64,000 nucleotides of DNA from Carcharhinus longimanus (lineage: Eukaryota), in NCBI GenBank assembly GCA_030264375.1, contig JASCQW010000130.1, forward strand, positions 28,800,067 to 28,864,066, given 5' to 3'. The first letter of the stretch is position 1; each line of letters begins with the position of its first letter. Made by a program: the position numbers. Positions 48,001-57,000 of the stretch are shown piece after piece.

Positions 48001-51000
48001 TTTTCCAAACTGGAGGCCTATGATCAGTGGTGTGCCTCAGGGATTGGTGCTGGGTCCACTGTTATTTGTAATGTATAATAACGACTTGGATGAGAATTTA
48101 GGAGGCATGGTTAGTAAGTTTGCAGATGACACCAAGACTGGTGGCAGGACCTACTCAGTTAATGGTAGGGCATTGGGNNNNNNNNNNNNNNNNNNNNNNN
48201 NNNNNNNNNNNNNNNNNNNNNNNNNNNNNNNNNNNNNNNNNNNNNNNNNNNNNNNNNNNNNNNNNNNNNNNNNNNNNGACCTCAGTGGCTCCTGCTTCCC
48301 ACTTTAATTCCTCCTATCTTGGCTCACCTCTTCATTTTCAATCTTCAGGGTGGCCAGACGGGACTGCAGCTGGTGATACCTCATGAGAAGTTCCGTTTGC
48401 ACTGGCTGCTGAGCACTCACTTGACAAACCTGAGATGAGAAGACAAGAAACAGATTCATTTAGTACACTGGTTCTTGCCACCTTCCATTGCCCCACCCTA
48501 TCCCAAGCCACCCAGATTTAATCTTGTTACATATTGCCAATTCTGGTGGGGGTGTGTGTGGTTGCCTGGGGTGGTATAGAGGTTGCCAGCTAGGGCATTG
48601 GGATCAGAATGTCACAATATATATGTTTCAAAGAGAGAGAAAGAACACAAAGAATACTAAAGCAGACACTGCTTTCCCTCAATGACATGGTTGACTATGC
48701 AATGTTCCTCAACTGGTGCGGTAAACTGCCCATACTTCAGCGTTACAGGGAGAACTTGTATTCTCACTGTAACATAATGCCAGCAGTTAGCAGTGGTCAA
48801 TTACAACATCAAACAATCCTGAGATGTAATCAGAAGAGACAGCTGTAAACAGTTCTTCGAAGTGACAATCATGTTTAAGAGTGTGTGGAAGCCAATGGGT
48901 GCCTGGGCAAACAATTTAATCAAAACTGATGAGGCACTATTGCAAAGTGTCATCAAGGGATAAATATTTCAGGAAAGGTTGGGGGCAGTAACATTCCCAA
49001 AGATAATTCTTTATCTCTTGTGCCTCATTAAAGAAAAGAAAGTTATTGTATTTATATAGCGCTTTGCATGGCCTTATGGAGTCCTAAGACAAGTTCTTAG
49101 GGTTGGAGCAGCGATAACAAAATGACACATGGCATGACTCCACAGCAATGAAATGAAGCCTGGATAAACTGATCTCAGTGTTGTAGGAGGGATAAGTATT
49201 GGGGAGAAATCTAGCAAGAGCTGTTGTACTCTCTGAATGAAGTCTGATCAAAAAACAGTAGAATCAACAACACAGCACTCCCTCAATATGACAAAGTAGC
49301 ATCAGCATAGATTTACTGCTCACATACCTGCCCTCCTAAAGTCTATGCTAACACCTCCCCACCGCCCCCAGTCCATACTGACACACTACCCACCCCCACC
49401 CCCATCCAGGCAGCACAATGGCACAGTGGTTAGCACTGCTGCTTCACAGTGCCAGGGACCTGGGTTTGACTCTGGCCTTAGGCAACTGTGTGGAGTTTGC
49501 ATATTCTCCTCCTGTCTGTGTGGGATTCCTTTGGGAGCAGCACAGTGACACAGTAATTAGCACTGCTGCCTCACAGCGCCAGGTACCGGGTTCAATTCTG
49601 GCCTTGCGTGACTGTGTGGAGTTTGCATATTTTCCCCGTGACAGCACGGGTTTCCTCTGGGTGCTCCAGTTTGCTCCCACAGTCCAAAGATGTGTGGATT
49701 AGCCATGTTAAGTTGCCCTTAGTGTCAGGGGGATTAGCAGGATAAATATGTGGGTTGCTGGGATAGCACCTGGGTGGAATTTTTGTCAGTGCAGGCACGG
49801 TGGGCCACATGGTCTCCTTCTGTACTGTAGGGATTCTATGCTTCTATAATATACTGGCTGCTGTGTTTCCTAATTTACAGTAATGTGGACACTTCAAAAG
49901 TACTGCATTCACTGTAAAGTGCTTTGTGAAAGATGCTATAGAAATGCAACTCTTTCCTCCATCAAGTTGGGGTTTAAAGTTATAAAGTTCTGACAGGAGA
50001 ATTAGCTTGGGCCAAGAAGAATTTATAAGAGTGAGGAGAGATATAGCTAAGGTCCGTGCACAGCTAGCTCTACACATACTCTCTCTGATACAAGTGTGAG
50101 ACAATCCGTCAATAAATATTTAACATTAATAATCAAAGTAAATTACACACATAAACCCAACCAGCATCTGTGCTTATATTTCCTGTCTTCACAACACATC
50201 CAGCTGAGAATATTTTTAACAATCTGTAATAGTCCTAATTACAGACTTGACATTGGAGAGTTACGATAGCAGACATCAGAAAAATTGGCAATGTTTCGGA
50301 TTTTATATTGCAATTTGAAACTCTGCAAGAAAGGCAACTATTTGCCTTTGTGAAGTGCCTTTTGACACAGTTAAACACTTGAGATGATTCACAGGAGTTG
50401 TGAACAAAATACAATTTGACACTGGGCCACTTGAGGAGATATGAGGGTTGAAAAGTGAGTTTGATGAAGTTTCAGTGACAAAACGCTGCACTTTTATCAG
50501 CAGCACAGAGTCATCCCAAGTCCTGTGTCTAGTCTGTGCTAAGTCGGTGTGGTGACAGTGGGTGTTACCATGTCTTATCCTTGGGAAGAAGCTGGGGCTA
50601 TCATGGAGTGGGAAAGGTTCTTGATTTTCCAGTGATTTCCTCTGGACGCTGCGTTGGGGTGATTTTCCAGCCGTTGGGATGATGGTGGGGGTTTGAAGGA
50701 ATTTGTTGGGGGGGGGGGGTTGCTCTGATGCCCCACTGCCAACCACGTTGGGGGAGGGACGTCTTTTAACGTCAATGTAAGACCCATCTCTGTGGAGCCA
50801 GGCTTGACGGCAACTTTAGGCCTCACCCTCAAGAATGAAGGCACAAAACATTTAATGAAACAAGCCCCCCTGCTTTTTTTTGACAAAGTATCATAAGATC
50901 TGGAGAGAAAATGTGGCTGTGTTTCTAGAGAGAAGCTTGCTGATTTTCAGTCAGACCCTGACACTTTGCCATTTTTAGGAAACTTCTGCTTTGTGTGTGT

Positions 51001-54000: not shown

Positions 54001-57000
54001 CAGCTTTGGAAAATGATAGTGACAGCCAGTCAAGGAGTAAATGTCTTTATTGTGAGGAGGATGCAAGAAGGCTTCAAGGTGATTTAGACAAGTTGAGTGA
54101 GTGGATAAACACATGGCAGAGGCAGTTCAATGTGGCTAAATGTGAAGTTGTACACTTCAGTGTGAAAAACAGAAAAGTATTATTTAAACGGTGACGTATT
54201 GGGAACTATGGATGTACAAAGGGATCTGGGTACACCAGTCAATGGAAGTGGAGAAGTAGATGCAGCAATAATTAGGAAGGCAAATTTTATACTGACCTTC
54301 ATTGCAAGAGGATTTGAGTTCAGAAGTAGAGATGTCTTACTGCAGTTAAACAATGCCTTGGTGAGACCACATTTGGATTACTGCAGTTTTCTTACTTAAG
54401 AAAGGATATATTTTCCATAGAGGGAGTGCAGAAGATAATACCAGGATTGGCAGGACTGTCCTATGAAGAGATCTTGGTTTGGTTGGGCCTGTATTCAGTC
54501 GAGTTTAAAAGGATGAGAGGAGATCTGCTTGAAACATATTAATTTTTAACATAGCTGGGCAGACTAGAAGAAGACAGGATGTTTTCCCTGGTTGGGGAAA
54601 CTAGAACCAGGGAACACAATCTCAGCATATGGGATAGACCATTTAGGACTGAGAAAAGGAAAGATTTCTTTGTTCAAAGGGTAGTGAATCTGTGGAACTG
54701 TCAACCACAGAAGGCTGTGGAGGCCAAGTCACTGAATGCATTCAAGAAAAAGATTATTTTTAAAGAATTTAATAGGATCAAAGGGTAATGGGAGAAAGCA
54801 GGAATATTGTATTGAAACTGAGGATCAGCCATGGTCATTGTGAATATCAGAGCAGGCTCAAAGGGTCAAATGGCCTACCCTGCTCCTATTTTCTACCTTT
54901 CCCTGCTCGATATGCTGTGCCTTTCTGGGATGGTCTGTGATCTCCTCTGCGCCTTACTGAACCCCCCCTCCCCCCATCCTTTGCCATCCTTCTGCCCTTA
55001 CATCTTGGAATACCGTGTACAGTTCTGGTCACCCTATTACAGAAAGGTTATTACTAAACTAGAAAGAACGGAGAAACGATTTACTAGGATGCTACCGGTA
55101 CTTGATGGTTTGAGTTATAAGGAGAGGCTGGATAGACTGGGACTTTTTTCACTGGAGCGTAGGTGGCTAAGGGGTGATCTTATAGAGATCTATAAAATAA
55201 TGAGGGGCATAGATTTGCTAGATAGTCAATATCTTTTCCCAAATGTAGGGGAGTCTAAAACTAAAGGGCGTAGGTTTAAGGTGAGAGGGGAGAGATACAA
55301 AAAGGTCCAAAAGGGCAATTTTTTCACAGACAGTGGTGAGTTTCTGGAACAAGCTGCCAGAGGTAGTAGTAGAGACAGGTACAATTCTGTCTTTTAAAAA
55401 GCATTTAGACAGTTACAAGGGTAAGATGGATATAGAGGGATATGGGCCAAATGGGGGCGATTAGGACTAGCTTAGTGGTAAAAACAGGGTAGCATTGACA
55501 GATTGGGCCAAAGGGCCTGTTTCCATGCTGTAAACCTCTATGACTCATCCATCATAGTTGTTTCAGAGAGATGTGACACTTTTTATGTCAGGAGGGAAGG
55601 TCACACTCTTGACATAAACATAAACAAAGAGAAGCAAGTGGTACGTGCAACTGGCTTTGACAAGATGGGGGGGGGGGGGTTTCCCTATTATGGAGGGTGT
55701 GACTTTGTGAACAAAATGTGTCAGATTTTATGGCCTTGCTCATCCCAAAACCATCAAATCCCACCCACGATCAACGGACCTTTCCATCATCCGATTCCCG
55801 TGGCAGGCGGGACAGTAAAATTCCAGCCAATAACTAAATGCTAAGATATACCATAACAGAAAGTCTGCCACTCACATCATGCTGGTTAATGTATGCTCTC
55901 CTAGTAACAGTCAAGATGCTTACATTCTTTGTCAGTCCAATGTTTGAATCTATTTGAATCATCAAATCAAATCAGAGGATGACTGCGACTATTAGTGATG
56001 AGGGCTATTCACTTCAAAGCTGGCTCATAACTTTGCCTGCAGTTTAACCACACGTGGCCAGCATGCATACCAGCAGTCTATGTGCCACACAAAACATTGT
56101 AGAGCACACCATCTGGGTGCTAAAGTAATGGTTTTGTTGCTCTAGAGGAACCCACCAGAGCATGCATCCAGATTTGTACTGTATTCCATAATCTGGCCAT
56201 TTTCATGGAACAGCCCTTACCAGGAATAAAGTGAATAGTTCAGGAACAGGAGGAAGGGAGAAGGCAATCGGCACCTCCTCTACAATTGAGCTAATCATGA
56301 TTGCCTCATTCGACCAATGTTCCGTTGAACACACCTACATGGTACAACAGTCACAAAGACCTTAACATCAGTCGGTTAAGAATCATCACCATGCCCTCTT
56401 GTTATTAAGGTTAAAATAAAAGTCACCAAAACCATCATTTCCAAATCAACTATATCCAATATTCCGTACCAAAAATCAGCCTTGTGCACTCTTTCAGTGC
56501 CTGTCATGCAAGTGTCTTTGCCTGACTAGTGCTCTGAAATATTGCCATGCCAGTGGCTGCAGTATAGCTGCTGGAAAACTGCTGACTTCAGTGGAATAGA
56601 CTGCAGGCTACTGTTGGGCAACTATGGGTCTGAAGAGCCCACCTTTAGACTGTACTACTTGGGCATGGGCAGTAGCAGCTTGGCTGGCAGGATGGCATGG
56701 TGGAAGCATGAAAACTATCATTTTGAGTGAGGACAAGAGACTTGAACTCCACTGAGTCCTGCTACTTCTCTCATCTAAGCATTCCTAGTAATCTGCTTAT
56801 GCACAGATTGCCGGACTGTTGTGAGATCCTGAAATCCTCTTTTGAACACGGGTATCTACAGCCATAATGGTAGTAGTCTGTCCTGCATGTCAGCCAACTG
56901 AGATTTCTTGATTTTAATCTAGGCCTCCACTGCAGAACCAAGATATTGGCTTCCATTGCAGCACAAGAAGAAGTCATCCGTCAACCATTAGGCATTGTAT

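What the first reader, a model, noticed from the sequence alone, without database searches (positions are those of the whole stretch)
48278..55000. Two intact SRGAP3 exons with their own intron inside the LRRC17/FBXL13 shared intron
Seen: minus-strand exons 53393-53614 (222 nt) and 48328-48429 (102 nt) have canonical ag/gt sites, no stops, and splice in frame into a near-perfect SRGAP3 F-BAR-end peptide. I found no other SRGAP3 exon in the window. Known: SRGAP3 is not a neighbour of FBXL13/LRRC17 in human, and partial F-BAR duplicates of the paralogue SRGAP2 (SRGAP2C) are functional in humans. Inference: the intron is retained, so this is genomic DNA rather than a retrocopy. It is either a recent partial duplication, giving three genes' sequence at one locus, or a misplaced contig. 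The left edge is an N-gap, which favours misassembly.
Basis: partly seen in the sequence, partly recalled or inferred. Interest (0 to 1): 0.8.

Follow-up and report, generated by a model that had tools for sequence, protein, structure and literature searches.

The report
SRGAP exons stranded in LRRC17 intron
Two perfectly intact exons of a SLIT-ROBO GTPase-activating protein gene sit on their own gap-bounded piece of a fragmented draft assembly inside an intron of LRRC17, which is more likely an assembly mis-join than a real gene-fragment duplication, and only the full assembly and its reads can settle it.

Summary
Minus-strand exons 53614..53393 (222 nt) and 48429..48328 (102 nt) are open and AG/GT-flanked. 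Searched exon by exon, they match consecutive residues 279-351 and 355-386 of human SRGAP2 F-BARx (E 4e-34 and 3e-8). The name SRGAP3 could not be tested here.

The context also holds. An LRRC17 coding exon (39981-40731, +) and the next LRR exon (62809-62964, +) bracket the block and agree in splice phase. FBXL-type LRR exons lie on the minus strand at 37.6 and 32.4 kb.

- **Its own contig.** The exons sit on a separate 13,948-bp contig (48278-62225) with a 100-N gap on both sides, not only the left. No LRRC17 or FBXL exon was seen on it.
- **Same genome.** It shares interspersed repeats with 10 of the 13 other contigs, so I do not take it for human or foreign DNA.
- **Left join unsupported.** A LINE is cut by the gap and does not resume on the other side.
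- **Right join has some support.** The two contig ends overlap by exactly 8 bases (chance about 4e-5 per gap).
- **No gene here.** No other SRGAP exon, promoter or start was found, so the SRGAP2C analogy fails.

My estimate is assembly mis-join about 0.6 and real recent duplication about 0.3. Read depth and spanning reads would decide.

The parts
53393..53614 (-). srGAP-family exon, 222 nt, 74 aa, phase 0-0. It corresponds to residues 279-352 of human SRGAP2 (end of the F-BAR).
   Evidence: AG/GT flanks. Open frame. PDB phmmer hit to 5i6j residues 279-351, E 4.3e-34.
48328..48429 (-). srGAP-family exon, 102 nt, 34 aa, phase 0-0. It corresponds to residues 353-386 of human SRGAP2 (last three F-BAR residues and the start of the Fx coiled coil).
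   Evidence: AG/GT flanks. Open frame. PDB phmmer hit to residues 355-386, E 3.3e-8.
48430..53392 (-). Retained intron of 4,963 bp between the two exons. It carries a tandem pair of SINE-like repeats (49410-49847) and another repeat at 52687-52825.
   Evidence: Repeat matches to other contigs at 66-92% identity.
48278..62225 (.). The contig that carries the exons: 13,948 bp, the longest in the window, with a 100-N run on each side. There are only 50 bp between its left end and the donor of the 102-nt exon, and 8,611 bp upstream of the 222-nt exon.
   Evidence: N-run list. Contig table. No LRRC17 or FBXL-type exon seen on it.
48178..48277 (.). 100-N gap, left join. No continuity across it was detected.
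   Evidence: The left side ends inside a LINE reverse-transcriptase fragment (RVT_1). The right side does not resemble the LINE tail (p 0.24-0.30 against shuffles). End overlap is 1 base.
62226..62325 (.). 100-N gap, right join. The last 8 bases before it equal the first 8 after it (TCACTGGA).
   Evidence: the other 12 gaps overlap by 0-4 bases. Chance of an overlap of 8 or more is about 3.8e-5 per gap. Neither end has a repeat copy elsewhere in the window.
47499..48177 (+). LINE reverse-transcriptase fragment that runs into the left gap.
   Evidence: Pfam RVT_1, 1.2e-8 and 2.9e-5. Matches the LINE copy at 27.4-27.6 kb at 82-83%.
48279..48310 (+). End of a short repeat at the very start of the SRGAP contig. 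Related copies lie at 8580-8611 and, more weakly, at 8311-8360, directly after another gap.
   Evidence: 30 of 32 identical. 24-base exact match against 0 expected. Alignment scores 55 and 26 against shuffle maxima of 26 and 19.
54790..55546 (+). LINE 3' tail (54790-54905) followed by a 5'-truncated LINE 3' part (55000-55546).
   Evidence: The tail matches 41665-41721 (score 62 against shuffle maximum 23). The 3' part matches three other copies in the window.
58881..60863 (.). Interspersed element with inverted 330-bp arms (58881-59203 and 60474-60803, 86% identical) and internal open frames. Copies or ends of it occur in four other contigs.
39981..40731 (+). First LRRC17 coding exon. The donor follows one base of a codon (phase 1).
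   Evidence: Open frame. LRR_8 1.8e-21. The atlas top three clusters are named LRRC17, scores 0.95-0.96. Donor sequence.
62809..62964 (+). Next LRRC17-type LRR exon. It starts with two bases that complete the split codon, and lies 484 bp right of the right gap.
   Evidence: LRR_8 9.5e-7.
37562..37614 (-). FBXL-type cysteine-containing LRR exon. It begins in phase 1.
   Evidence: The name FBXL13 comes from the known nested pair, not from a search.
32321..32450 (-). FBXL-type LRR exon.
   Evidence: Weak LRR_6 / LRR_4 hits, E 0.004-0.006, below the Pfam cut-off; the query included 12 intron bases.

Best explanation
The two exons are the ordinary, functional exons of this animal's srGAP gene (probably SRGAP3). 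They encode the end of the F-BAR and the start of its Fx extension. I think they appear in the LRRC17/FBXL13 intron because the draft assembly joined a piece of the SRGAP locus to this locus through interspersed repeats. Two routes are possible:
- The whole 13.9-kb contig was slotted between two true neighbours by the scaffolder.
- The join lies inside the contig, at one of its repeats, and was closed without Ns.

Shown: the exons, their family, the flanking LRRC17 exons, the gaps on both sides, and the LINE cut at the left gap.

Inferred: that the linkage is false. On this reading there is one copy in the genome, nothing new is expressed, and the true SRGAP locus in the same assembly lacks these two exons.
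For: 1. The window is a fragmented draft, with 13 N runs in 64 kb and contigs of 0.5-13.9 kb. The SRGAP exons sit on a contig bounded by 100-N runs on both sides.
2. 100 N is a placeholder, not a length. The gap at 41565-41664 sits inside one LINE copy with, by my recalled estimate of the element's layout, several hundred bases of LINE missing.
3. I saw no LRRC17 or FBXL-type exon on the SRGAP contig. No contiguous sequence therefore ties SRGAP exons to a local exon.
4. The left neighbour ends inside a LINE, and the SRGAP contig starts with the end of a different short repeat 50 bp from the exon. The LINE does not resume across the gap. This is the kind of place where false links arise.
5. The exons show no decay. 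They have open frames, strong pyrimidine tracts and consensus donors, and about 75% identity to a human paralogue. That is what the real gene would show.
6. Only two internal exons are present, with no start, no 5' exons and no RhoGAP or SH3 exons in 64 kb.
7. The contig holds several repeats that could carry an internal false join.
8. My own order-of-magnitude estimate, not a computation: repeat-mediated mis-joins in an assembly of this quality should outnumber recent interspersed duplications that carry exons by roughly ten to one.
Against: 1. The right gap shows an exact 8-base end overlap, with chance about 3.8e-5 per gap and about 5e-4 over 13 gaps. Both ends there are unique within the window. 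This suggests the contig really abuts the contig that holds the next LRRC17 exon. It argues against whole-contig misplacement and leaves only the internal-join version of the artefact.
2. Where 100-N joins can be checked by a repeat running across them, they look right: 2 of 2 checkable gaps (2729-2828 and 41565-41664), out of five 100-N gaps.
3. LINE copies in the window are only 67-83% alike, so a false join through them needs closer copies elsewhere in the genome.
4. A recent duplication collapsed by a short-read assembler would look exactly the same in this window.
5. I could not see the rest of the assembly, its reads or any related genome.
Confidence: 0.6

Rival explanations
1. The insertion is real. 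A recent segmental (duplicative) transposition copied at least 6.7 kb, possibly the whole 13.9 kb, of the SRGAP locus, with two exons and their intron, into the LRRC17/FBXL13 intron. The exons are intact only because the copy is young. It has no promoter or start, so it makes no srGAP-like protein. It lies on the FBXL13 strand, so its strong splice sites could be used in FBXL13 pre-mRNA.

A sub-version: an unspliced transcript antisense to SRGAP ended in the LINE 3' tail at 54790-54905 (+ strand) and was copied in by LINE reverse transcriptase. That would keep the intron and place the LINE tail at the right end of the block.
For: - The exact 8-base overlap across the right gap, with unique sequence on both sides.
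- The other checkable 100-N joins are sound: 2 of 2.
- The contig carries the same repeat families as the rest of the window.
- Contig breaks at both ends of the block are what a collapsed recent duplicate would give.
- For the sub-version: a plus-strand LINE tail lies about 1.2 kb upstream of the 222-nt exon, directly before a second LINE fragment.
Against: - No contiguous sequence joins an SRGAP exon to a local exon.
- The left junction is hidden in a gap.
- By my rough estimate, interspersed recent duplicates that carry exons are much rarer than mis-joins in such drafts.
- The FBXL exon at 37614 starts in phase 1. Read from a phase-1 intron, the 222-nt exon hits TGA at its third codon. Two strong same-strand exons would therefore poison FBXL13 transcripts. 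This is tentative, since unseen FBXL13 exons may lie between.
- The LINE-tail sub-version has no target-site duplication or left end to show, and LINE tails are common here.
Confidence: 0.3
2. A true srGAP gene spans this locus. Its other exons lie outside the window, so that LRRC17 and part of FBXL13 sit inside srGAP introns and the genes interleave.
For: srGAP genes are long with large introns (recalled). The srGAP family belongs to a four-fold paralogon that includes the NRCAM, PLXNA4 and SYPL1 families (Table 2 passage of PMC8851675). I recall those genes lying on human 7q22-q32 near FBXL13, on the SRGAP1 arm.
Against: - It would need an intron of more than 48 kb after the 102-nt exon, with same-strand FBXL13 exons inside it.
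- No further srGAP exon was found in the window.
- By recollection the peptide fits SRGAP3, not SRGAP1.
Confidence: 0.03
3. The contig is contamination from another organism, for example human DNA.
For: The srGAP peptide is highly conserved.
Against: - The contig shares SINE-like, LINE and other repeats, at 66-92% identity, with 10 of the 13 other contigs of the window.
- Its CpG depletion (0.23) is like theirs (0.15-0.36).
- The exons differ from human SRGAP2 at about a quarter of positions.
I do not take this contig for human.
Confidence: 0.01

Closest known systems
SRGAP2 / srGAP family F-BARx (PDB 5i6j, 5i6r; Sporny et al. 2017, PMC5435084)
   Same: The two exons align without gaps to consecutive residues 279-351 and 355-386, about 75% identical. 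That is the last part of the F-BAR (1-355) and the start of the Fx extension (356-484) (passage).
   Different: Only 108 of more than 1,000 residues are encoded here. The rest of the gene is not in the window. At 75% identity to SRGAP2 it is a paralogue rather than the SRGAP2 orthologue. SRGAP3 is a recalled assignment and was not tested.
SRGAP2B/SRGAP2C, human partial duplicates
   Same: Both would be partial genomic copies of an srGAP gene that retain introns.
   Different: [quoted passage not shown] That it carries its own promoter and 5' exons is recalled. This block has only two internal exons, with no start or 5' exons seen, and cannot encode a dimerising F-BAR.
Scaffold mis-join or interleaved contig in a draft assembly
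   Same: A contig bounded by placeholder gaps, repeats at the left contig ends, and foreign, perfectly intact exons with no contiguous link to local exons.
   Different: The right gap shows an 8-base end overlap that a false join does not predict.
FBXL13 (host) / LRRC17 (nested) gene pair
   Same: LRRC17 exons on one strand and FBXL-type LRR exons on the other, as in human and mouse (PMC3933685 table, PMC6994161 passage).
   Different: No srGAP sequence is described at this locus. A search for SRGAP3 with LRRC17 found 3 papers whose titles point to other subjects (listing only).

Membership tests
srGAP family (F-BARx region) | Significant sequence match to the F-BAR/Fx region of a solved srGAP | tested here: met
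   E 4.3e-34 and 3.3e-8 to 5i6j/5i6r, exon by exon.
srGAP family (F-BARx region) | The two pieces are collinear and adjacent in the protein and join in frame | tested here: met
   Residues 279-351 then 355-386. Lengths are 222 and 102 nt, both phase 0. The joined peptide itself was not searched or folded.
srGAP family (complete gene) | N-terminal F-BAR exons, RhoGAP and SH3 exons at the same locus | tested here: not met
   None seen in the window by eye or with recalled motifs. This is a weak test, and the gene may lie elsewhere.
SRGAP3 (orthologue-level name) | Groups with SRGAP3 rather than SRGAP1, SRGAP2 or ARHGAP4 in a tree | not testable with these tools
   No vertebrate protein set was open. 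PDB holds only SRGAP2 for this region. The atlas score was 0.78 with generic names.
SRGAP2C-like functional partial duplicate | Carries promoter, start codon and 5' exons so that a truncated F-BAR is made | tested here: not met
   Only two internal exons are present. In the exon's frame the acceptor AG itself forms a TAG stop immediately upstream. No 5' exons were seen in 8.6 kb upstream.
Segmental duplication / duplicated gene fragment | A second copy at the parental locus, double read depth if collapsed, and junction-spanning reads | not testable with these tools
   Only this window is available.
Scaffold mis-join | The foreign block is separated from local sequence by gaps, with no continuity across them | tested here: inconclusive
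   Left gap: no continuity. Right gap: exact 8-base overlap.
LRRC17 | Leucine-rich repeat protein whose nearest named clusters are LRRC17, with exons that fit in phase | tested here: met
   LRR_8 1.8e-21. Atlas top three clusters named LRRC17, 0.95-0.96 with 171-175 shared features. Phase-1 donor and acceptor.
FBXL13 | F-box plus cysteine-containing LRRs, orthologous to FBXL13 | tested here: inconclusive
   Two minus-strand exons have the cysteine-containing LRR pattern, but the Pfam hits are below cut-off. No F-box exon was seen. The name rests on the known nesting.

The most novel reading that the evidence does not exclude
The block is real. A very recent duplicative insertion, possibly primed from the LINE tail at 54790-54905 on an unspliced antisense transcript, has put two constitutive-strength srGAP exons with their intron into an intron of FBXL13, on FBXL13's own strand and between two LRRC17 exons. 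That would be exon shuffling caught at its first step. The spliceosome would see two strong new exons that either poison FBXL13 (a stop at the third codon if the host intron is phase 1) or are skipped.
Probability: 0.3. Interest if true: 0.45.

Novelty: not a real feature. Interest (0 to 1): 0.2.

Why it matters
If it is an artefact, as I think more likely, it matters only for curation. The SRGAP gene model of this assembly will lack two exons, and automatic annotation may build a chimeric or spurious model in the LRRC17/FBXL13 intron.

If it is real, it would be a datable example of a gene fragment with intact splice signals landing on the coding strand of another gene. That would be useful for studying how new exons are tolerated, skipped or recruited. 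It would not be a second SRGAP2C, because it cannot encode a dimerising F-BAR.

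Tried and rejected
1. **Whole-frame PDB search.** I did not read the stops through with another code. I listed open frames by eye and ran recalled short motifs, which is much weaker.
2. **A split LINE.** The idea was that the LINE fragment at 47499-48177 and the LINE 3' part at 55000-55546 are two halves of one element split by the block. They have the same strand and are collinear without overlap. By my recalled layout of the element about 165 bases of LINE are unaccounted for. 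The reference copy has its own deletion, and four such 5'-truncated copies occur in the window. I judge it compatible with chance.
3. **LINE tail at the contig start.** The idea was that the first 50 bases of the SRGAP contig are the missing LINE's 3' tail, which would have supported the left join. The alignment is no better than shuffles (p 0.24-0.30), so I rejected it.
4. **GC contrast.** The contig is 0.432 against 0.379 and 0.370 for its neighbours. But window contigs range 0.37-0.53 and per-kb GC slides smoothly across the right gap, so this is uninformative. There is no switch at about 55 kb.
5. **Paralogue naming by the protein atlas.** The score was 0.78 with generic names only.
6. **Hammerhead ribozyme.** I recalled a resemblance between the arms of the 58.9-60.9 kb element and hammerhead ribozymes. 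Rfam gave 0 hits at gathering score over the whole window, and only a chance-level IS009 match (E 0.73) in 58700-61000. No tRNA lies in the contig.
7. **Target-site duplication.** I looked for one around the 58.9-60.9 kb element to prove that both of its flanks come from one locus. The left arm is truncated, so there is no answer.
8. **Ambiguity codes.** I looked for them as a sign of a collapsed duplicate and found none in the window.
9. **Joined model left out.** The joined 108-residue model was not searched, folded or compared. Structure and complex prediction were not used.

Full report
**What is there.** On the minus strand, 53614..53393 (222 nt) and 48429..48328 (102 nt) are each preceded by a pyrimidine tract ending in AG and followed by GTatgt and GTgagc. 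Each translates without a stop, to 74 and 34 residues. The first matches residues 279-351 of human SRGAP2 F-BARx (PDB 5i6j/5i6r), E 4.3e-34, with 55 of 73 positions identical by my count. The second matches residues 355-386 of the same chains, E 3.3e-8, with 24 of 32 identical. Pfam has no model for this part. According to a passage of PMC5435084, residues 1-355 are the F-BAR and 356-484 the Fx extension, so the exons encode the end of the F-BAR and the first 31 residues of Fx. Both exons are phase 0-0 and join in frame across a 4,963-bp intron. The joined 108-residue model was not built, searched or folded.

**Which paralogue.** About 75% identity to human SRGAP2 points to a paralogue rather than the SRGAP2 orthologue. 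I could not test whether it is SRGAP3. No vertebrate protein collection was open, PDB holds only SRGAP2 for this region, and the protein atlas gave generic 'Rho GTPase-activating / F-BAR' clusters at 0.78. By my recollection the peptide fits SRGAP3 best. That is a recollection, not a result.

**The surroundings.**
- An open frame at 39981-40731 (+) carries LRR_8 (1.8e-21). Its three nearest atlas clusters are all named LRRC17, at 0.95-0.96.
- It ends at a donor after one base of a codon. At 62809-62964 (+) there is a further LRR exon (LRR_8 9.5e-7) that begins with the two bases completing that codon. These are therefore consecutive LRRC17 exons, and in this scaffold their intron (40732-62808) contains the SRGAP exons.
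- On the minus strand, exons with the cysteine-containing LRR pattern of F-box/LRR proteins lie at 37614..37562 and 32450..32321. Their Pfam hits are below cut-off.
- FBXL13 hosting LRRC17 is a listed nested pair in human (table passage of PMC3933685), and mouse Fbxl13 exons 10-12 overlap Lrrc17 (passage of PMC6994161).

**The assembly.**
- The window has 13 N runs. Five are exactly 100 N: 2729, 26351, 41565, 48178 and 62226.
- The SRGAP exons lie on the longest contig, 48278-62225 (13,948 bp), with a 100-N run on each side.
- I saw no LRRC17 or FBXL-type exon on that contig, and no further srGAP exon anywhere in the window.
- The contig shares SINE-like, LINE and other repeats, at 66-92% identity, with 10 of the 13 other contigs, and has similar CpG depletion. 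It belongs to the same genome, and I do not take it for human or foreign DNA.
- No N stretch was filled.

**What the gaps say.**
- 100 N is not a measured length. At 41565-41664 the left edge reads as a LINE open frame and the right edge is that LINE family's 3' tail. By my recalled layout of the element, several hundred bases of LINE are missing.
- That join, and the one at 2729-2828 where LINE coding sequence lies on both sides, look correct. Two of the five 100-N gaps could be checked this way, and both pass.
- At the left SRGAP gap the neighbour ends inside a LINE reverse-transcriptase fragment (RVT_1). The other side starts with the end of a different short repeat, also found at 8580-8611 and 8311-8360, only 50 bp from the exon. 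It does not resemble the LINE tail (p 0.24-0.30). Nothing supports this join.
- At the right gap the last 8 bases of the SRGAP contig equal the first 8 of the next contig. The other 12 gaps overlap by 0, 0, 0, 1, 0, 4, 2, 0, 0, 0, 0 and 1 bases.
- From the window's own k-mer collision rates, the chance of an overlap of 8 or more is about 3.8e-5 per gap. Both ends are unique within the window. I noticed this after the fact, but it is hard to dismiss. It suggests a coverage break between true neighbours.

**Weighing.** Three readings remain.
- **(a) Whole contig misplaced by scaffolding.** This fits the two gaps and the unsupported left join, but it needs the 8-base overlap to be chance.
- **(b) False join inside the contig.** The right part of the contig would be true LRRC17 intron and the left part true SRGAP locus, joined through a repeat (LINE at 54.8-55.5 kb, or the inverted-arm element at 58.9-60.9 kb) and gap-closed without Ns. 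This fits everything seen. However, LINE copies in the window are only 67-83% alike, and GC stays at 0.43-0.45 up to 61 kb.
- **(c) A real, recent duplicative insertion.** This also fits everything. If very recent, a short-read assembler would have collapsed it, which would itself explain breaks at both ends.

The window cannot separate (b) from (c). I rely on a rough prior of my own, not computed: repeat-mediated mis-joins in a draft of this quality should outnumber recent interspersed duplicates that carry exons by about ten to one. That gives an artefact, (a) plus (b), at about 0.6 and a real insertion at about 0.3.

**Function.** On any reading, the block is not a gene of its own. It has two internal exons and no start, and in the exon's frame the acceptor AG forms a TAG stop immediately upstream. 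The comparison with SRGAP2C fails, because that duplicate roughly spans the F-BARx and lacks only exon 10 onwards (passages of PMC5435084). If the insertion is real, its most likely effect is on FBXL13, which shares its strand. The FBXL exon at 37614 begins in phase 1, and read from a phase-1 intron the 222-nt exon meets TGA at its third codon. This is tentative, because unseen FBXL13 exons may lie between.

**Literature.**
- A search for SRGAP3 with LRRC17 found 3 papers whose titles point to other subjects (listing only).
- A search for SRGAP3 with shark found 12 papers, 8 of them listed, none on a duplication by title or abstract start.
- A passage of one of these, PMC8851675, lists SRGAP1, SRGAP2, SRGAP3 and ARHGAP4 as one neighbour family of the oxytocin/vasotocin-receptor paralogon.
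The chromosome tables of that paper, which might show where srGAP genes lie in a skate, were not seen.

**Verdict.** Interest is low unless depth and spanning reads show the block to be real.

Noticed in passing
window 62218-62333: The 8 bases before the 100-N run 62226-62325 are identical to the 8 bases after it. The other 12 gaps overlap by 4 bases at most (the 5-N gap at 16852-16856 overlaps by 4). Some gaps in this assembly may be zero-length or negative.
   Followed up: partly
window 41480-41730: The 100-N run 41565-41664 sits inside a single LINE copy, with coding sequence on the left and the element's 3' tail on the right. By my recalled layout of the element, the true gap is several hundred bases, not 100.
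   Followed up: yes
window 8311-8360, 8580-8611, 48279-48310: A short repeat end (24 bases exact between two copies) lies directly after two different gaps (8301-8310 and 48178-48277). It may be the edge of an element that breaks this assembly. Its family is unknown.
   Followed up: partly
window 63171-63295: A perfect 63-bp tandem duplication (100% identity), just downstream of the LRRC17 exon at 62809-62964.
   Followed up: no
window 58881-60863: An element with inverted 330-bp arms (86% identical) and internal open frames (59527-60270, +). Arm-end copies at about 90% identity lie at 13.1, 18.2 and 63.95 kb, and longer matches at about 70-75% at 0-1 kb. A recalled likeness of the arms to hammerhead ribozymes was not supported by Rfam.
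   Followed up: partly
window 37562-37614 and 32321-32450: The two FBXL-type exons do not fit each other in phase: the first ends in phase 0 and the second starts in phase 2. At least one exon must lie between them, unrecognised or lost in the 10-N gap at 33693-33702.
   Followed up: no
window 49410-49847: Two adjacent SINE-like copies (80% alike) lie in the SRGAP intron. Relatives lie at 11.1, 35.0 and 38.7 kb, one of them cut by the 776-N gap.
   Followed up: no
window 2569-6564: A large LINE-type retroelement on the minus strand. It has an endonuclease domain (Exo_endo_phos_2, 1.3e-10) and long open frames, and is interrupted by the 100-N gap at 2729-2828.
   Followed up: no
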